From IMG/VR virus record IMGVR_UViG_2537562091_000002: a stretch of DNA of 5,175 nucleotides; one strand, given 5' to 3'. A program made the translations under genes and the position numbers. Every line of letters begins with the position of its first letter. Within the stretch, counting starts at the first letter, position 1. Positions 1 through 5,175 of this stretch are shown in pieces. The notes below the pieces were generated by a model. That model made no database searches and was not told the DNA's origin. It saw only the letters and a list, made by a program, of their open reading frames with translations. The DNA is from a virus. Lineage: Duplodnaviria > Heunggongvirae > Uroviricota > Caudoviricetes.

Positions 1-195
1 CCTGTCATACGCGTAAAACAGCCAGCGCTGGCGCGATTTAGCCCCGACATAGCCCCACTGTTCGTCCATTTCCGCGCAGACGATGACGTCACTGCCCGGC
101 TGTATGCGCGAGGTTACCGACTGCGGCCTGAGTTTTTTAAGTGACGTAAAATCGTGTTGAGGCCAACGCCCATAATGCGGGCTGTTGCCCGGCAT
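1..195 (-). CDS. insB: IS1 InsB, 5' part only (65 codons; 3' end lies beyond the window)
   Basis: Minus-strand ATG at 193-195, then [65 protein letters not shown] to position 1; overlaps insA in another frame as in canonical IS1. Confidence 0.8.
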
Positions 196-389
196 CCAAC
201 GCCATTCATGGCCATATCAATGATTTTCTGGTGCGTACCGGGTTGAGAAGCGGTGTAAGTGAACTGCAGTTGCCATGTTTTACGGCAGTGAGAGCAGAGA
301 TAGCGCTGATGTCCGGCAGTGCTTTTGCCGTTACGCACCACCCCGTCAGTAGCTGAACAGGAGGGACAGCTGATAGAAACAGAAGCCAC
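114..389 (-). CDS. insA: IS1 InsA (transposition regulator / N-terminal part of the InsAB' transposase), GTG start
   Basis: 91-aa translation [40 protein letters not shown]...LKNSGRSR matches recalled IS1 InsA throughout; stop TAA at 114-116. Confidence 0.95.
132..138 (-). other. IS1 A6C slippery run (programmed -1 frameshift site producing InsAB')
   Basis: Minus strand reads TTAAAAAACTC here, at the insA/insB overlap. The role of this motif in IS1 is established knowledge. Confidence 0.7.
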
Positions 390-421
390 TGGAGCACCTC
401 AAAAACACCATCATACACTAA

Positions 422-444
422 ATCAGTAAGTTGGCAGCATCACC
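422..444. repeat. IS1 terminal inverted repeat (insA-proximal end)
   Basis: ATCAGTAAGTTGGCAGCATCACC is the exact reverse complement of the recalled 23-bp IS1 IR. Confidence 0.85.
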
Positions 445-517
445 CAACACCCGATACTTTTTCCTGGCTTCCAGCAACGGGGTTTCTTCCTCCGTTGCAT
501 ATACAGCTCACCTTTTT

Positions 518-811
518 TCACCCACGATTAACCAACAGCCAGATCAGCAGACACGCCACCACCGGCACAGCAAAATCCATCAGGCTTGCCACATCCCAAA
601 CACGCGGATCAAAACCGCCCCACCACGGCATGTTAATCCGCTTGCCATGCCCGAACATTTCAATCCAGCGATATTCTGCCTGGGTGTGTTCACGCGCAAT
701 GAAGAACGTACAACCAGCTATCGCCCCATAAGCCCAGTTTCCGGTAAAAAGACCAACCAGTGTCTGCGCAGCCACAGCACAAAGCGCATGAAGAAAAGGT
801 GTTATATCCAT
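518..811 (-). CDS. Small predicted membrane protein (97 aa), function unknown; last gene of the post-fibre cassette
   Basis: ORF with ATG at 809-811 preceded by AGGAGGAG immediately after the upstream stop. Hydrophobic stretches FLHALCAVAAQTLVGLF, WAYGAIAGCTFFIA and FAVPVVACLLIWLLV flank a charged loop containing WWGGFDPRVWD. No family recognised by eye. Confidence 0.6.
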   Translation of the reverse strand: MDITPFLHALCAVAAQTLVGLFTGNWAYGAIAGCTFFIAREHTQAEYRWIEMFGHGKRINMPWWGGFDPRVWDVASLMDFAVPVVACLLIWLLVNRG

Positions 812-821
812 TACTCCTCCT

Positions 822-1526
822 TTATCTAATATCGCTTCGGGAAGTTAATAACAACTTTAATTCTGACTCAAGTTCATCAACTCTTTCAGTCAGTTTCTGG
901 ATATGGTGAATCAGTGGAACAACCAGACGTTCGTACATTACACCTTCGGCAACAAGGCCATTGCTGGAAATAGCTTCAGGAGCATCATCTTCGTTAGCTG
1001 GTCGCCAGTGTACAAACTGAGGAGCAATTTCTCCTACTTCCTCGGCAATCAATCCGTAGAATCCCCAGTCACGCCTGTCATTTTCGCATTGCGACCTGTA
1101 CCACACAGGGCGCATCCTGAAAATGAGATCGGCGTGCTCTGAATCTATTGTCTCTACTGAATGTTTATAGCGGATAGACGATGTTGACCGCAGCACAGAC
1201 GAAATTGCAGGGTCAGGATTAAGATAAAGGTTTGCCGCCGCTGTAGTCGTGGCCAAATTCCATAAATAAAACGCTTCACGACCTGTCAGTGGATAAAAAT
1301 CTCCGCCATAACGACCACTTTCCAGATCGTTCACTTCCACTTTGTTTTTCAGCTTATTATCAACTTCAGTTTTTGTGTATCTGGAGCTGATATCCTGCTT
1401 TGCACTGGTCATCTCAGTCTGAAGCGTTGATACTTTTCTGCTAATTGATGAAATATCTTCCTTAGCTTTACTGACATCCCCCTTTAGCTTGGTGATATCT
1501 CCTGGAATTACTGTCGATGTAGCCAT
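822..1526 (-). CDS. Standalone coiled-coil protein (234 aa) with a C-terminal peptidase-S74-type intramolecular chaperone domain (tail-fibre/tailspike auto-chaperone type)
   Basis: ATG at 1524-1526, with GAGG overlapping the upstream stop 9 nt before it. Residues about 10-65 show 3-4 spaced hydrophobics (heptad pattern). Residues about 116-234 (SSIRYKHSVETID...RPVWYR...GLIAEEVGEIAPQFV...YERLVVPLIHHIQKL...ELESELKLL) fit the recalled S74 IMC consensus (SDrrlK...lrPvsYrY...GliAQEv...). Confidence 0.8.
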   Translation of the reverse strand: MATSTVIPGDITKLKGDVSKAKEDISSISRKVSTLQTEMTSAKQDISSRYTKTEVDNKLKNKVEVNDLESGRYGGDFYPLTGREAFYLWNLATTTAAANLYLNPDPAISSVLRSTSSIRYKHSVETIDSEHADLIFRMRPVWYRSQCENDRRDWGFYGLIAEEVGEIAPQFVHWRPANEDDAPEAISSNGLVAEGVMYERLVVPLIHHIQKLTERVDELESELKLLLTSRSDIR

Positions 1527-1535
1527 TTTCCTGCC

Positions 1536-1817
1536 TCACATCCAGCCACGAAGTTGATGCTCAACAACAACCGCGTATTTATCGAATATTGACGATTTTT
1601 TTGCATCATTAATGATGCGCACGTTTACAAAATATCCGTCTTCCTTAACACATACCGGCTCGCCATCTTCAGTAAGTTCTCCGGTTTCTTTGTACACGTT
1701 ACCTATCACGTCAATAAGAATATCATCCTGCATCGACTCGTCATCATAATAGCCAGCACTCTTCATAAAGGCCGAAAAGTCGGCCTTGTCTGTGAATTTG
1801 ATAATTAAATCTCGCAT
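1536..1817 (-). CDS. Small acidic hypothetical protein (93 aa), translationally coupled to the fibre gene
   Basis: ATG at 1815-1817 overlaps the fibre stop (minus strand reads TAATG); GGGAGAG lies upstream. Asp/Glu-rich product (MRDLIIKFTDKADFSAFMKSAGYYDDESMQDD...). No similarity to Tfa recognised. Confidence 0.6.
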   Translation of the reverse strand: MRDLIIKFTDKADFSAFMKSAGYYDDESMQDDILIDVIGNVYKETGELTEDGEPVCVKEDGYFVNVRIINDAKKSSIFDKYAVVVEHQLRGWM

Positions 1818-3784
1818 TATATTATCTCTCCCATTTGCGCATCGGTTAATTCTTTATGCCATATTCTAAAATTCCTGATATAACCAAATAAATGACGTAA
1901 GCCGGCTGTAGTCTGGCCTCCAATCCTTATACCTGTAGCACCACTAACACTCTTCCACGTTGTTGATGCTGGTGTTGATAAAACCCCATTGCAGCCAGCC
2001 TGAAACTTGCCATCGCTTTTTATTCTATATACAGCGATAATCTTTCTTGGGTAATTTCCAGGTGGAAATGATATTGGATTACCAAATTGAACATATGGAG
2101 TTCCTACACTACCTGCTGTATTTCTGAATGCAAAAACAAAAGCGTCGTCTTTTGTTTTAAATCCTGTTATATCATAAATTCTAGGCGCGGAATTTGGTGC
2201 CATAGACCAATTTTTATTCACTTCAACCATGCAGGTTAAAGGTTTGCTGGCCATGTTATTTTTACAAGGCAATGTAACAATATCGCTTGCTCGCGTTGAT
2301 GCAACTGTATCGGAAATGATAAAAGATGATGCGCATGAGCCGCCTTCAAATTGTGGTGTCGTAACATCCAAATATTCCCCGCCCAAATAAGTTCCAGGTG
2401 AAACAGGTGGAGCAATTTGGATCTGAGAGCCAACCATATTATCAATAGCTTCAGATTGATATGTAACCTCGAAATAAATCCATCCATTAGATTCTTTCTC
2501 CGCTCGGGCGGTTATTCTTGCAGCCCCTCCTCCCGTTTTCCTAATGGACATATCTGTTATATTAAGATATGCATCTGCCAGATAAAAATATGCGGACCCG
2601 TCATATCTTTCAAATCTTATACGACATTGTATATTAGCACTATCGCTTTTTACACGACATGATGTTGTAACATACTTTTCAGTTCCAGTAACATCGACAC
2701 CTCTTCCTCCTGAAACCGCAGCGATATTCATTGTCGTATTTGTCCCAATTTTTTCGTCCTTTATTTGAAACCGCCCATAAGTAAAGCCAAACTCATCAAC
2801 ACCACTTTCTGTTATAGTTACACTTGTTGTAGCTCCCCACTTAGATGGCGTAAGTGAATTAAGATGATAGTTGGTTCTTTGTCCTTCAATCAGCAAACCT
2901 TCTCGTTCAAATCGCGGTTCGTCAACTTCAGCAACGGTTAATACTCCTGATTTATTAATGTATGTTGCACCTGATGCGCGTTTGAAGCTAACAACCTTAT
3001 CGGATGGCATTTTAATAACATCATCACCTACAGTTATTTGCTTATAACCAGGCGAAAAGCCAGCAAGCATATCCAGTGAATCGTTAAACGGTATCCACAC
3101 ATCGGGAAGCGGCTGCAAAACTTGTTTATACGGCTCCGCAGCCTGGCTTGCATACTCTCTGGCTGCGTCTTCACTTGCTTTTGCAGCCGTCTGGCTTGCA
3201 GCGGATGCTTTCGCCGAGTTAGCCGCCGCAGTCTCGCTCGCCTTTGCGTTGGTTTCACTGGTTTTTGCAGCTTTTTGACTGTTGGCTGATGCAGTGGCAG
3301 AAGAAGCCGCCGCACTTGCAGAACCAGCTGCGGCACTCTCGCTTTGGGCCGCTGCATCCTGACTGTTTTTCGCCGCAGTTTCGCTGGCTTTGGCATTCGT
3401 TTCGCTGGTCTTCGCTGCCGTCTGGCTGGACTTTGCGTTAGTTTCGCTCGTCTTCGCTGCTTTCTGGCTGTTAGCTGCAGCAGTTGCTGATCCAGCTGCT
3501 GAAGTCGCAGAACCGGCTGCCGCACTCTCGCTTTCGGCTGCTGCAGCCTGACTGCTTTTCGCCGCAGTTTCACTGGTTTTGGCATTCGTTTCGCTTGTTT
3601 TCGCTGCCGCCTGGCTGGACTTTGCGTTGGTTTCGCTCGTCTTTGCTGCTGTCTCGCTATTTTTCGCGTTGTTTTCTGATTTTTTAGCTGCTGTCGCGGA
3701 GTTTGCCGATGCAGTCTGCGAGGCCGCTGCCGCCTGTGCGCTGTTAACCTGAATCGGTTCGTGCTGCCTTTGCGGTTTCCTGAT
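1817..3784 (-). CDS. Side tail fibre protein (Stf family), N-terminally truncated remnant. Open frame 3784-1817 with no canonical start; the only start candidate is TTG at 3116-3118. C-terminal LamG/concanavalin-A-like lectin-type domain.
   Basis: Manual translation of the frame continuous with the 1817..3118 ORF stays open up to TGA at 3785-3787. Residues upstream of 3118 read ...AAKTSETNAKASETAAKNSQDAAAQSESAAAGSA..., typical of lambda Stf-type shaft repeats. The C-terminus ...IGGQTTAGLRHLFGYIRNFRIWHKELTDAQMGEII fits the LamG signature (IGG...G.IDEVRIYNRALSAEEI). Confidence 0.8.
   Translation of the reverse strand: MRKPQRQHEPIQVNSAQAAAASQTASANSATAAKKSENNAKNSETAAKTSETNAKSSQAAAKTSETNAKTSETAAKSSQAAAAESESAAAGSATSAAGSATAAANSQKAAKTSETNAKSSQTAAKTSETNAKASETAAKNSQDAAAQSESAAAGSASAAASSATASANSQKAAKTSETNAKASETAAANSAKASAASQTAAKASEDAAREYASQAAEPYKQVLQPLPDVWIPFNDSLDMLAGFSPGYKQITVGDDVIKMPSDKVVSFKRASGATYINKSGVLTVAEVDEPRFEREGLLIEGQRTNYHLNSLTPSKWGATTSVTITESGVDEFGFTYGRFQIKDEKIGTNTTMNIAAVSGGRGVDVTGTEKYVTTSCRVKSDSANIQCRIRFERYDGSAYFYLADAYLNITDMSIRKTGGGAARITARAEKESNGWIYFEVTYQSEAIDNMVGSQIQIAPPVSPGTYLGGEYLDVTTPQFEGGSCASSFIISDTVASTRASDIVTLPCKNNMASKPLTCMVEVNKNWSMAPNSAPRIYDITGFKTKDDAFVFAFRNTAGSVGTPYVQFGNPISFPPGNYPRKIIAVYRIKSDGKFQAGCNGVLSTPASTTWKSVSGATGIRIGGQTTAGLRHLFGYIRNFRIWHKELTDAQMGEII
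3240..3720. repeat. In-frame tandem direct repeat, period 189 bp (63 codons), about 2.5 copies, encoding the fibre shaft low-complexity repeats
   Basis: Near-identical blocks start at 3321 and 3510 (GAACCAGCTGCGGCACTCTCGCTTTGGGCC... vs GAACCGGCTGCCGCACTCTCGCTTTCGGCT...). The sub-motif CTTTGCGTT.GTTTC.CT.GT recurs near 3242, 3431 and 3621. Confidence 0.85.
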
Positions 3785-3791
3785 TCAGCAT
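3744..3791 (-). pseudogene. 15-codon stub (MLNQETAKAARTDSG*), interpreted as the remnant 5' end of the gene after nu1 (terminase large subunit by position)
   Basis: ATG overlaps the nu1 stop as TAATG and is preceded by AGGAGGAG. The frame stops after 15 codons exactly where the Stf-type repeat sequence begins. Too short to identify by sequence; the call rests on position. Confidence 0.35.
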
Positions 3792-4285
3792 TACTCCTCC
3801 TGCTGTAATTCCTCCTCATCATCCGCACCTGCTTCAGTCACCCGCAGGGCTATCTGATCGCGCAGATCATCAATAATGGACTGAACACGGCTCACAGCGG
3901 CAGGCTGCAGACCGCAGTCACGTTCAAGAATATCCGGTAATGTCTCCAGCACCTGCACGACCGCTTTTGCCCAGATGGCAAACTCCCGTCTGACATCACT
4001 GGCCGGAATGAGTTGTGCCGTTTCCTGTTCGAACTTAAGACGCTCACGTTCAGACTGATACCAGGCTTTGCGCTCATGCGCGTCCATTTCGCCTTCTGCA
4101 ACCGGCGGTGGTAATGCCAGAAATGCCGACACAATATCAACCACCCGATAAAGCTTGAGGTTGCTTTCATGCCCCCCTGCAACGGGTAGATTTTGCAGCC
4201 TTGCCGCAGCAGTCTGGCGATGTACACCTGACAATGCCGCCAGTTGACTGATATTCAGCGTCAGATTTTTTAACTCTCGATCCAT
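3791..4285 (-). CDS. Terminase small subunit, lambda Nu1 / Noh family (164 aa)
   Basis: ATG at 4283-4285 with GGAG 7 nt upstream. N-terminal HTH-like segment LNISQLAALSGVHRQTAAARL parallels lambda Nu1 KKQLADIFGASIRTIQNWQ. Sits about 175 bp downstream of a cosN-like site, as in lambda. Confidence 0.85.
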   Translation of the reverse strand: MDRELKNLTLNISQLAALSGVHRQTAAARLQNLPVAGGHESNLKLYRVVDIVSAFLALPPPVAEGEMDAHERKAWYQSERERLKFEQETAQLIPASDVRREFAIWAKAVVQVLETLPDILERDCGLQPAAVSRVQSIIDDLRDQIALRVTEAGADDEEELQQEE

Positions 4286-4500
4286 ACCCGCTCCAGAATG
4301 TTTTAAACATGCATCTTGCGAACAACTTTAGGCAAACGGTGTTAGTGATGAACAAAAAACAATCAGAATCGACACCATAAAAATAAAACAACTGTAATAT
4401 CAATCAATTACAGTAGTGGTGATGACGAATAAAATTTCAAAAACTAGCCTTTTTCCGCGACGCTCCCGCCCCGTGGCAGGGCCCCCCCACTGGGAGGACC
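4286..4500 (-). other. cos region: cosN-like 12-mer (minus strand GGGCGGGAGCGT, plus 4460-4471), cosQ-like sequence on the high-coordinate side, AT-rich cosB-like spacer towards nu1
   Basis: Minus strand reads ...GGGTCCTCCCAGTGGGGGGGCCCTGCCACG GGGCGGGAGCGT CGCGGAAAAAGG... Recalled lambda is ...GGGTCCTTTCCGGTGATCCGACAGGTTACG GGGCGGCGACCT CGCGGGTTTTCGC... The 12-mer matches 8/12, both nick-flanking triplets/pentamers match, and the spacing to GGGTCCT is the same. Confidence 0.55.
4391..4414. repeat. Perfect 8-bp inverted repeat with 8-bp spacer (ACTGTAAT-ATCAATCA-ATTACAGT) inside the cosB-like spacer
   Basis: Read directly from the sequence; function unknown. Confidence 0.5.
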
Positions 4501-4718
4501 CGACAGCCTGACAACCGTGACGAGCATCTGTAACAGAGCTTTACATAATGGCATGGGGATAATTCAGAAGGACATCACAGCATGCCCACACAAATTAGTG
4601 TGAGTGTCCTGTTTCTTACTACGCGCAGGACTGACGAGCATGAGGGGAAAATACGAGAAACGAAATGCCTTATCTTCAGAAATGCAGCCGGCATCCGAAC
4701 TGGACGATATTGTAAATT

Positions 4719-4757
4719 TGATCTTACCCAGCAATAGTGGACACGCGGCTAAGTGAG
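4719..4757. repeat. IS3 left terminal inverted repeat (approximate extent)
   Basis: Element terminus begins with TG at 4719; the roughly 39-bp IR length is recalled, not measured. Confidence 0.6.
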
Positions 4758-4783
4758 TAAACTCTCAGTCAGAGGTGACTCAC

Positions 4784-5083
4784 ATGACAAAAACAGTATC
4801 AACCAGTAAAAAACCCCGTAAACAGCATTCGCCTGAATTTCGCAGTGAAGCCCTGAAGCTTGCTGAACGCATCGGTGTTACTGCCGCAGCCCGTGAACTC
4901 AGCCTGTATGAATCACAGCTCTACAACTGGCGCAGTAAACAGCAAAATCAGCAGACGTCTTCTGAACGTGAACTGGAGATGTCTACCGAGATTGCACGTC
5001 TCAAACGCCAGCTGGCAGAACGGGATGAAGAGCTGGCTATCCTCCAAAAGGCCGCGACATACTTCGCGAAGCGCCTGAAATGA
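4784..5083 (+). CDS. insE: IS3 OrfA (InsE). The ORF track starts at GTG 4775; the canonical ATG is at 4784 with AGAGG upstream.
   Basis: Translation MTKTVSTSKKPRKQHSPEFRSEALKLAERIGVTAAARELSLYESQLYNWRSKQQNQ...ATYFAKRLK matches recalled InsE. The CCAAAAG slippery motif lies at about 5043-5049. Confidence 0.9.
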   Translation: MTKTVSTSKKPRKQHSPEFRSEALKLAERIGVTAAARELSLYESQLYNWRSKQQNQQTSSERELEMSTEIARLKRQLAERDEELAILQKAATYFAKRLK

Positions 5084-5175
5084 AGTATGTCTTTATTGAA
5101 AACATCAGGCTGAGTTCAGCATCAAAGCAATGTGCCGCGTGCTCCGGGTGGCCCGCAGCGGCTGGTATACGTGGT
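5080..5175 (+). CDS. insF: IS3 OrfB (InsF), 5' part only, with an apparent 1-nt deletion in an A-run (possibly inactivating, possibly a homopolymer sequencing error)
   Basis: ATG at 5080 encodes MKYVFIE in frame 1. The conserved continuation HQAEFSIKAMCRVLRVARSGWYTW is encoded from 5103 in a different frame. The window has GAAAAC where the recalled sequence has GAAAAAC. Confidence 0.7.
   Translation, partial: MKYVFIENIRLSSASKQCAACSGWPAAAGIRG

What the first reader, a model, noticed from the sequence alone, without database searches (positions are those of the whole stretch)
518..1817. Three tightly coupled small genes replace the expected Tfa/Pin partners downstream of the tail fibre
All three ORFs are co-directional with the fibre and packed with coupling signals: TAATG overlap at 1815-1819, a 9-nt gap with GAGG at 1527-1535, and a 10-nt gap with AGGAGGAG at 812-821. 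In lambda, Rac, Qin and e14 the side tail fibre is followed by a Tfa assembly chaperone and often a Pin-family invertase. None of the three products looks like Tfa (about 190 aa) or a serine recombinase. Instead there is an acidic 93-aa protein, a 234-aa coiled-coil plus intramolecular-chaperone protein, and a 97-aa membrane protein. The fibre-distal end of a late operon is a known hotspot for morons, superinfection exclusion and defence cargo. The cassette could therefore be either an unusual fibre-maturation set or an accessory or defence module. I cannot tell which from sequence alone.
Basis: partly seen in the sequence, partly recalled or inferred. Interest (0 to 1): 0.75.

Follow-up and report, generated by a model that had tools for sequence, protein, structure and literature searches.

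The report
Tail-fibre tip genes plus membrane cargo
The three small genes are not a defence cassette: two belong to a widespread modular phage tail-fibre tip, the third is a separate, uncharacterised membrane-protein gene, and all sit in a decayed E. coli prophage.

Summary
Three co-directional minus-strand ORFs (93, 234 and 97 aa) lie at the stated coordinates with the stated coupling signals.

They are not one functional cassette, and Tfa/Pin are not truly replaced.

- The 93-aa gene (phrog_1361) directly follows, with start overlapping the fibre stop, a fibre ending in the same ~430-aa C-terminal module in all eight loci read. These span five phage groups: lambdoid, Drexlerviridae, Dhillonvirus, T5-like and rV5-like. 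A sixth group, Queuovirinae, shows the same gene order by hit coordinates.
- The 234-aa protein is a minimal distal fibre. It shares its N-terminal motif (M-x-T-x-T-x-IP-x-DIT-x-LK) with the larger distal fibres of IrisVonRoten (Gp24) and Tritos. It also has a coiled coil and a Peptidase_S74 self-cleaving chaperone domain.
- The 97-aa protein (phrog_1443) is a three-helix membrane protein with a near-invariant loop. It occupies positions I know as cargo slots in unrelated temperate phages and is a lone chromosomal gene in Aeromonas. Its function is unknown.

A tfa remnant (445-512) is cut by IS1, and pinQ follows in sibling genomes. The fibre here is a pseudogene fused to a terL stub. The full block occurs in 723 of 5,426 complete E. 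coli genomes. PADLOC finds nothing. Overall this is ordinary in kind, but it contains two uncharacterised families.

The parts
1..444 (-). IS1 (partial in the window; insA at 114-389), inserted into the tfa remnant
   Evidence: The ORF translation is IS1 InsA. Identity with REL606 begins at 445. The IS1 terminal sequence ends at 444.
445..512 (-). 3' remnant of a tail fibre assembly (tfa) gene, truncated by IS1
   Evidence: The minus-strand frame reads AVYATEEETPLLEARKKYRVL. The Tritos counterpart continues ...LNRVDTSTAQDIEWPALP*. RefSeq annotates the REL606 equivalent as 'tail fiber assembly protein, incomplete' with pinQ next to it.
518..811 (-). 97-aa three-helix membrane protein (phrog_1443), the last gene of the late operon in lambdoid phages; an accessory gene of unknown function
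812..821 (-). Ribosome-binding site AGGAGGAG in the 10-nt gap before the 97-aa ATG
   Evidence: Read directly.
822..1526 (-). 234-aa minimal distal fibre. It comprises an N-terminal docking motif (1-15), a coiled coil (~12-65), a short tip (~66-116) and a Peptidase_S74 intramolecular chaperone (117-234; Ser116/Lys121 motif SSIRYK).
   Evidence: PF13884 at 27.5 bits against a cut-off of 22. Matches the C-terminal end of phrog_3299 at E = 9.5e-138 and several tail fibre PHROGs. Matches the IMC of the chain named 'L-shaped tail fiber assembly' in PDB 8hqz (E = 2.7e-6). The N-terminus is shared with IrisVonRoten Gp24, KarlBarth gp30, the KarlJaspers 225-aa protein and Tritos gene 21.
1536..1817 (-). 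93-aa acidic protein (phrog_1361), the obligate neighbour of fibres carrying the LPDVWIPF...RHLFGHIRNFRIWH module; a probable fibre-tip assembly or attachment factor
   Evidence: PHROG E = 1.3e-44. Found in 186 phage records; in nearly all listed annotated rows the match overlaps a gene called tail fibre or tail protein. The same upstream module is present in all eight loci read, from five phage groups. AF2 pLDDT 80, with no significant structural relative.
1820..3106 (-). C-terminal ~430-aa module of the side tail fibre (GTA head-spike-fibre-like domain plus a Laminin_G_3/'galectin-like' end), the probable glycan-binding tip
   Evidence: NF048003 at E = 4.3e-14, residues 76-277. Laminin_G_3 over residues 347-428 at 25.1 bits, just below the 27.6 cut-off. 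The first 270 residues are 93% identical to IrisVonRoten Gp22. Described in print as a 'galectin-like domain' (PMC11990801).
3107..3746 (-). Ala/Ser/Thr-rich SETNAK-repeat shaft of the fibre. It is N-terminally truncated, so the fibre is a pseudogene.
   Evidence: Translation. Aligns from residue 173 of the intact 731-aa fibre of IdasGreatGrand. No start codon before 3118.
3747..3789 (-). First ~14 codons of a terminase large-subunit gene (ATG at 3789; MLNQETAKAARTDSG*), joined out of frame to the fibre shaft: a deletion scar
   Evidence: Window 3745-4560 is 99.9% identical to intact 'DUF1441 family protein | terminase large subunit' prophage loci. Identity with REL606 stops at 3746.
3791..4285 (-). 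Terminase small subunit (DUF1441)
   Evidence: PF07278 at E = 2.7e-41. phrog_141 at E = 7.2e-74.
4719..5175 (+). IS3 left end with orfA (4775-5083)
   Evidence: ORF translation. RefSeq annotation of the identical REL606 sequence as IS3.

Best explanation
The region is the distal end of a modular side (lateral) tail fibre locus in a decayed Qin-like lambdoid prophage, followed by one unrelated accessory gene. It is not a single three-gene system.

How the intact ancestor most likely worked:
1. The side fibre carried a trimeric SETNAK-repeat shaft ending in a ~430-aa lectin-like module.
2. The 93-aa protein, translated by coupling from the fibre's stop codon, acts on or binds that conserved module. 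It is either its folding/assembly factor or the seat onto which a second fibre docks (inferred).
3. The 234-aa protein is a minimal distal fibre. Its N-terminal peptide docks on the proximal fibre. Its coiled coil and short tip trimerise under the guidance of the C-terminal S74 chaperone domain. That domain then cleaves itself off at Ser116, leaving a stub of about 116 residues (inferred from family knowledge).
4. The 97-aa protein is an inner-membrane protein carried at the end of the late operon as cargo. My best guess is an envelope-directed or superinfection-exclusion function that benefits the lysogen.

In this window the fibre has lost its N-terminus and its start codon, and the head and tail genes are deleted. 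The cluster is therefore a relic and cannot build a fibre.
For: Shown:
- The same C-terminal fibre module precedes every 93-aa homologue examined: eight loci from five phage groups. In nearly all listed annotated rows of the 186 phage records, the 93-aa match overlaps a gene called tail fibre or tail protein.
- Where a further fibre-type gene directly follows the 93-aa homologue, it starts with M(A/V)T.T.IP.DIT.LK. This holds in lambdoid, Drexlerviridae, Dhillonvirus and T5-like loci read directly. By hit coordinates it also holds in the Queuovirinae phage JenP1.
- IrisVonRoten Gp24 carries this N-terminus and is modelled in print as a distal fibre attached to the proximal fibre Gp22, whose 'galectin-like' C-terminal domain is the module found here (PMC11990801; 93% identity).
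- The S74 domain passes the Pfam cut-off and matches the IMC of the chain named 'L-shaped tail fiber assembly' in PDB 8hqz.
- The middle slot is exchangeable. It is empty in phage 21, 234 aa here and in IdasGreatGrand, and 346 aa with its own IMC in Tritos. E. coli genomes fall into the matching coverage classes.
- The 97-aa gene is independent of this fibre type. It lies between the tailspike and int in the P22-like phage Gally, behind a terminator-like hairpin and a promoter-like site. It lies after tfa in phiHAP-1, between gpJ and genes I read as a lysis cassette in a Comamonas prophage, and alone in an Aeromonas chromosome.
- Virulent phages with the same fibre module (KarlJaspers, IrisVonRoten, KarlBarth) have no adjacent 97-aa homologue.
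- Decay of the locus.
Against: - No experiment or complex model here shows that the 93-aa protein touches the fibre or the distal fibre.
- If the 93-aa protein were purely an adaptor, its retention in phage-21-type and rV5-like loci without an adjacent distal fibre would be unexplained.
- A mature stub of about 116 residues with almost no tip domain is an odd receptor-binding protein. BASEL annotators call its homologues a 'putative lateral tail fiber chaperone', and a trans-acting role is not excluded.
- The role of the 97-aa protein is a guess from position only. It also occurs inside the tail-fibre cluster of a 154-kb phage, and partial matches occur in ~235-kb Aeromonas phages. That fits lysogen-benefit cargo poorly.
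Confidence: 0.7

Rival explanations
1. The three genes form one dedicated fibre-maturation set. The 93-aa and 234-aa proteins would be trans-acting chaperones for the lectin-tipped fibre, with the S74 domain working in trans. The 97-aa protein would be a membrane-anchored assembly platform.
For: Tight translational coupling of all three genes. Homologues of the 234-aa protein are annotated 'putative lateral tail fiber chaperone'. Distant 97-aa homologues lie directly after fibre, tfa or tailspike genes in phiHAP-1, Carin-5 and Gally. The whole block is conserved in 723 E. coli genomes.
Against: Virulent phages build the same fibre module with no adjacent 97-aa homologue, and phage 21 does so with no 234-aa gene. 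The 97-aa gene also occurs with no fibre nearby, in an Aeromonas chromosome. The N-terminus of the 234-aa protein is shared with bona fide long distal fibres. To my knowledge, S74 domains act in cis.
Confidence: 0.12
2. The block, or at least the 97-aa gene, is an anti-phage or superinfection-exclusion module that protects the lysogen. The 97-aa membrane protein would block DNA entry or mask or alter a surface receptor.
For: The 97-aa gene is the last late-operon gene in the lambdoid phages read. It occupies the tailspike-to-int slot of the P22-like phage Gally, where to my knowledge P22-like phages carry O-antigen conversion genes, behind a terminator-like hairpin and a promoter-like site. 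It sits between the fibre-assembly and sheath genes in phiHAP-1, which I know as a cargo slot in P2-like phages. The phage records with full-length matches are mostly temperate types. The strictly conserved polar loop suggests a specific target.
Against: No PADLOC match. No similarity to known exclusion proteins was found in any library searched. It is present inside the fibre cluster of a 154-kb phage, with partial matches in ~235-kb Aeromonas phages, and as a chromosomal gene in Aeromonas. For the 93-aa and 234-aa genes this reading is contradicted by their presence in the structural operons of virulent phages.
Confidence: 0.3
3. The 97-aa protein is a holin-like or lysis-timing membrane protein.
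For: It has three predicted membrane helices in ~97 residues, the size and layout of class I holins. In the Comamonas prophage its stop overlaps the start of a membrane-protein gene that is followed by ORFs I read as an endolysin and an Rz/Rz1 pair.
Against: It has no charged C-terminal tail. The sequence is very strongly conserved across genera, which is unlike holins. Lambdoid phages that carry it have their own lysis cassette elsewhere. A lone chromosomal copy exists in Aeromonas.
Confidence: 0.07

Closest known systems
Composite lateral tail fibre of T5-like phage IrisVonRoten (Bas32): Gp22 proximal fibre, Gp23 (92 aa), Gp24 T-shaped distal fibre (Humolli et al. 2025, PMC11990801)
   Same: The gene order is the same. 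Gp22 ends in the same ~430-aa module (93% identity over its first 270 residues). Gp23 is a 40%-identical homologue of the 93-aa protein, with its start overlapping the fibre stop. Gp24 shares the N-terminal motif and the C-terminal S74 domain.
   Different: Gp24 is 574 aa with two receptor-binding domains, whereas the protein here is 234 aa with almost no tip. The shaft and virion attachment are lambdoid Stf-type rather than T5 LtfA/LtfC-type. A 97-aa membrane gene follows here but not in IrisVonRoten. The locus here is a pseudogenised relic.
Branched LtfA/LtfB lateral tail fibres of T5-like phages DT57C and DT571/2 (Golomidova et al. 2016, PMC4728585; Ayala et al. 2023, PMC10713586)
   Same: The principle is the same: a second fibre protein attaches to the virion only through the first, and the fibre proteins have S74 autocleaving C-terminal domains.
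   Different: In DT57C both LtfA and LtfB end in S74 domains, and no small intervening gene is described. Here the proximal fibre ends in a lectin-like module and is followed by the 93-aa gene.
Lambda Stf-Tfa with a Pin-type invertible segment (lambda, Rac, Qin, e14)
   Same: The N-terminal and shaft architecture of the fibre (SETNAK repeats) and the position after J-lom are the same. A tfa 3' remnant and pinQ flank the block in sibling genomes.
   Different: The receptor-binding end and its helper genes are of a different type. None of the three products has a Tfa (Caudo_TAP) domain.
T4 long tail fibre gene set 34-35-36-37 (my own knowledge)
   Same: Analogy only. The order is a proximal fibre gene, then a small joint protein, then distal fibre genes, with N-terminal regions mediating attachment between segments.
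   Different: No sequence or fold similarity was detected, and the T4 proteins are much larger. The adaptor role of the 93-aa protein is unproven.

Membership tests
Peptidase_S74 / intramolecular-chaperone tail fibre proteins (234-aa product) | Pfam PF13884 match above the gathering score | tested here: met
   27.5 bits against a cut-off of 22, residues 116-172 covering profile positions 1-57 of 58.
Peptidase_S74 / intramolecular-chaperone tail fibre proteins (234-aa product) | Conserved Ser ... Lys (S-x-x-x-x-K) autocleavage motif at the start of the domain | tested here: met
   S116-S-I-R-Y-K121 aligns with T-S-G-I-E-Y-K of the PDB 8hqz chain named 'L-shaped tail fiber assembly' and with S-D-S-R-L-K in IrisVonRoten Gp24 and S-D-R-D-L-K in Tritos gene 21.
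Peptidase_S74 / intramolecular-chaperone tail fibre proteins (234-aa product) | Autoproteolytic release of the C-terminal domain after trimerisation | not testable with these tools
   Needs expression and SDS-PAGE or mass spectrometry.
Composite proximal/distal lateral tail fibre (IrisVonRoten Gp22-Gp24 type) | Proximal fibre ending in the LPDVWIPF...RHLFGHIRNFRIWH lectin-like module | tested here: met
   Alignment of the window with seven phage loci. NF048003 at E = 4.3e-14.
Composite proximal/distal lateral tail fibre (IrisVonRoten Gp22-Gp24 type) | Downstream protein with the shared N-terminal motif M-x-T-x-T-x-IP-x-DIT-x-LK | tested here: met
Composite proximal/distal lateral tail fibre (IrisVonRoten Gp22-Gp24 type) | Physical attachment of the distal protein to the proximal fibre in the virion | not testable with these tools
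   In the literature this is only an AlphaFold-Multimer model for the homologous pair (PMC11990801).
Composite proximal/distal lateral tail fibre (IrisVonRoten Gp22-Gp24 type) | Intact proximal fibre able to join a tail | tested here: not met
   The N-terminal ~170 residues and the start codon are missing, and the frame is fused to a terL stub. This window therefore holds a relic of such a system.
Tfa / Caudo_TAP tail fibre assembly chaperones | Caudo_TAP (Tfa) domain in any of the three products | tested here: not met
   No such match in Pfam, NCBIfam or PHROGs. Only a 3' tfa remnant lies outside the three ORFs, at 445-512.
Pin-family serine invertases | Resolvase/invertase catalytic domain | tested here: not met
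   No match in the three products. pinQ/PinR lies further downstream in REL606, TUM10008 and Tritos but is cut away by IS1 here.
Known anti-phage defence systems (PADLOC-DB v2) | Match of any product to a defence-system protein model | tested here: not met
   No families at E up to 1 for any of the three.
Class I holins (97-aa product) | Three transmembrane helices, a charged cytoplasmic C-terminal tail, and a gene next to an endolysin | tested here: not met
   Three helices are present. However, the protein ends 1-3 residues after helix 3 with no charged tail. It is not adjacent to lysis genes in any lambdoid locus read.
Prophage cargo ('moron') / lysogenic-conversion genes (97-aa product) | Location at known cargo slots of unrelated temperate phages, with autonomous transcription signals | tested here: inconclusive
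   The slots match in Gally, phiHAP-1 and at lambdoid late-operon ends. The terminator-plus-promoter layout in Gally rests on consensus matches only. In the window the gene is translationally coupled, with no promoter of its own standing out.

The most novel reading that the evidence does not exclude
The 97-aa protein (phrog_1443) may be the founding member of an undescribed family of small inner-membrane proteins with a catalytic or ligand-binding site (invariant D2, H8 and Q16 in helix 1, plus the R-E-H-x-Q-A-E-Y-R-W ... G-x-R ... P-W-W-G-G-F-D loop). Temperate phages of several lineages would carry it as cargo to alter the host envelope or to exclude other phages. Separately, the 93-aa protein (phrog_1361) may be a new class of fibre-tip assembly factor or joint protein specific to lectin-tipped lateral fibres in at least five phage groups.
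Probability: 0.3. Interest if true: 0.55.

Novelty: new member of a known kind. Interest (0 to 1): 0.3.

Why it matters
For this window it matters little. The locus is a decayed prophage end whose fibre cannot be made.

More generally, the comparison clarifies a very common arrangement: the full block is in 13% of complete E. coli genomes, and some part of it is in 35%. It is a modular fibre tip with a fixed lectin-type module, a fixed small partner gene and an exchangeable distal-fibre slot, shared between temperate and virulent phages.

That is useful for predicting and engineering host range. It also points to two abundant but uncharacterised protein families (phrog_1361 and phrog_1443) that are cheap to test experimentally.

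Tried and rejected
- **Defence system:** PADLOC found nothing, so I rejected this for the block as a whole.
- **Tfa or invertase identity:** no domain match in any of the three products.
- **AFDB Foldseek:** the library was unavailable.
- **Sequence search of the PDB:** nothing for the two small proteins.
- **Co-variation test:** I asked whether divergence of the 93-aa protein tracks a particular part of the fibre module. The loci are too mosaic (rho 0.56 with the first 270 residues, -0.03 with the C-terminal 150, 0.47 with the last 40). The result is inconclusive.
- **Deeper MSA for the 93-aa protein:** the word-index search returned mainly homologues above 80% identity, plus one clade at about 50%. 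This limited model confidence (pLDDT 80).
- **Literature:** searches by accession and FIG identifiers found no paper. Searches for virion proteomics and for the PhiR phage collection gave nothing on these proteins.
- **Rfam:** no RNA family in the window.
- **Holin reading of the 97-aa protein:** considered and ranked low (see rival explanations).
Full report
**1. The observation**

The window carries three co-directional minus-strand ORFs: 1536-1817 (93 aa), 822-1526 (234 aa) and 518-811 (97 aa). The junctions, read on the minus strand, are:
- The fibre stop and the 93-aa start share one base (TAATG, 1815-1819).
- A 9-nt gap precedes the 234-aa ATG. Its GAGG overlaps the TGA stop.
- A 10-nt gap reading AGGAGGAGTA precedes the 97-aa ATG.

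No terminator-like site occurs between 430 and 4600.

The product descriptions hold:
- The 93-aa protein has pI 4.45.
- The 234-aa protein has Peptidase_S74 above the Pfam cut-off, plus weak coiled-coil matches in its N-terminal third.
- The 97-aa protein is modelled as three long helices (pLDDT 93.9).

**2. Context**

- Window 445-3746 is 99.97% identical to the Qin-like prophage of E. coli B REL606.
- In REL606 the same three genes are followed by a tfa fragment and pinQ. TUM10008 and phage Tritos show the same.
- In the window, IS1 (1-444) has inserted into that tfa remnant. The remnant's frame (445-512) reads AVYATEEETPLLEARKKYRVL.
- Upstream, the fibre frame is open over 1820-3778 but has no start codon before the TTG at 3118. 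It aligns only from residue 173 of the intact 731-aa fibre of phage IdasGreatGrand.
- At about 3746 the fibre shaft is joined, out of frame, to the first ~14 codons of a terminase large-subunit gene, which lies next to a DUF1441 terS.

The head and tail genes are therefore gone and the fibre is a pseudogene. The cluster is a relic. 'Replaces Tfa/Pin' is also not accurate.

**3. Are the three genes a unit?**

They are not.

*The 93-aa protein (phrog_1361).*
- It has homologues in 186 phage records: lambdoid, Dhillonvirus, ~50-kb Drexlerviridae, T5-like, rV5-like and JenP1-type phages.
- In nearly all listed annotated rows the match overlaps a gene annotated as tail fibre or tail protein.
- In the seven comparison phage loci read in full, its start overlaps the fibre stop.
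- In all eight loci, counting the window, the fibre ends in the same ~430-aa module, from LPDVWIPFNDSL to RHLFGHIRNFRIWH..LTD.
- That module matches NCBIfam 'phage head spike fiber domain'. It also gives a near-threshold Laminin_G_3 match at the end: 25.1 bits against a cut-off of 27.6.

*The 234-aa protein.*
- It is >92% identical in four lambdoid phage records and 57-60% identical in about 45 Drexlerviridae. There it is annotated 'putative lateral tail fiber chaperone' or 'chaperone of endosialidase'.
- Its N-terminus, MATSTVIPGDITKLK, recurs at the start of several proteins: the 574-aa distal fibre Gp24 of IrisVonRoten, KarlBarth gp30, the KarlJaspers 225-aa protein and the 346-aa Tritos gene 21. 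Tritos gene 21 has its own S74 domain.
- The slot after the 93-aa gene is therefore exchangeable. It is empty in phage 21, holds 234 aa here and 346 aa in Tritos.

*E. coli genome counts.* In 5,426 complete E. coli genomes:
- 723 carry the whole block.
- A second class matches only the flanks across a longer middle.
- A third class matches only the 97-aa gene.

*The 97-aa protein (phrog_1443).* It is the most conserved element at lambdoid late-operon ends but is not tied to this fibre:
- In the P22-like phage Gally it lies between the tailspike and int, behind a terminator-like hairpin and a promoter-like site.
- In phiHAP-1 it follows tfa, before the sheath gene.
- In a Comamonas prophage it lies between gpJ and genes I read as a lysis cassette.
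- In Aeromonas rivipollensis it is a lone chromosomal gene.
- Virulent phages with the same fibre module have no adjacent copy.

**4. Mechanism**

The closest described system is the composite lateral fibre of IrisVonRoten. Humolli et al. (PMC11990801) model Gp24 as a distal fibre attached to the proximal fibre Gp22. Gp22 bears a 'galectin-like' C-terminal domain. The window's module is 93% identical to Gp22 over its first 270 residues.

By homology I read the 234-aa protein as a minimal distal fibre with these parts:
- a docking peptide;
- a coiled coil;
- a short tip;
- an S74 chaperone domain, which matches the IMC of the PDB 8hqz chain named 'L-shaped tail fiber assembly'.

The chaperone domain should cleave itself off at the S116...K121 motif, leaving about 116 residues. 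That step is inferred from what is known of the family.

The 93-aa protein is inferred to be an assembly factor or seat for the conserved lectin-type module. Three lines of evidence support this:
- its strict linkage and translational coupling to that module;
- its presence in virulent structural operons;
- its presence even where no distal fibre follows (phage 21, rV5-like JeffSchatz).

That last point favours a chaperone or cap role over a pure adaptor role.

Neither small protein could be placed by structure or sequence:
- The 97-aa protein has a near-invariant loop (AREHTQAEYRWI...G.G.R.NMPWWGGFD.R.W) and invariant D2, H8 and Q16. It has no informative fold match and no match in Pfam, NCBIfam or PADLOC.

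From its positions I favour prophage cargo acting on the envelope or excluding other phages, but with low confidence. Holin-like and assembly roles are ranked lower.

**5. Comparison and novelty**

- The kind of system is known: a modular or branched lateral tail fibre with an S74-bearing distal part (DT57C LtfA/LtfB; IrisVonRoten Gp22-Gp24).
- This locus is a lambdoid member with an unusually small distal fibre, and it is degraded here.
- It is not a member of the Tfa, Pin or any PADLOC family (tested, not met).
- The uncharacterised elements are the two small protein families. No paper was found for them.

**6. Verdict**

- Observation: confirmed.
- Interpretation: partly supported.
- Novelty: new member of a known kind.
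- Interest: 0.3.
- Most novel reading not excluded: the 97-aa family is an undescribed small membrane enzyme or receptor-modulator carried as phage cargo, and the 93-aa family is a new fibre-tip assembly factor. Probability about 0.3.

Noticed in passing
window 3745-3790: Deletion scar. The first ~14 codons of a terminase large-subunit gene (ATG at 3789) are joined out of frame to the fibre shaft, so the whole head/tail region is missing. REL606 has a different structure at this point (fibre N-terminus, lom and a J fragment).
   Followed up: partly
window 1-5175: No complete E. coli RefSeq genome (5,426 searched) holds the window contiguously. The best is 81% coverage, in pieces spread over 7-8.6 kb. 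The IS1/IS3-flanked variant may come from an unsampled E. coli B-related lineage or from Shigella.
   Followed up: no
window 2271-3115; L005 (IrisVonRoten) 3700-4560: The first ~270 residues of the fibre's C-terminal module are 93% identical at protein level (about 90% at DNA level) to Gp22 of the virulent T5-like phage IrisVonRoten. That is the only BASEL Markadamsvirinae phage able to infect K-12 with restored O16 O-antigen. This points to a recent exchange of a probable glycan-binding domain between temperate and virulent phages.
   Followed up: partly
window 445-512: The conserved tfa 3' remnant directly abuts the 97-aa stop codon, here and in REL606 and Tritos. Together with the SETNAK shaft repeats it could act as a homology anchor, so that the whole tip block is swapped as a cassette (inference).
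   Followed up: partly
window 4455-4505: A GC-rich stretch (cgctcccgccccgtggcagggcccccccactgggaggacccgac) lies upstream of terS. It has no Rfam match and might belong to the cos/packaging region.
   Followed up: no
L011 6300-8033 (Comamonas testosteroni prophage): Directly after the 97-aa homologue come a 125-aa and a 99-aa gene (the first clearly a membrane protein). Then come a 183-aa ORF, and a 171-aa Rz-like ORF with an embedded lipoprotein-type ORF. I read this by eye as a lysis cassette placed right after gpJ.
   Followed up: partly
phrog_3299: The whole 234-aa protein matches positions 1147-1383 of a 1385-position PHROG profile. In some phages the mini distal fibre may therefore be fused in frame to a long fibre protein.
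   Followed up: no
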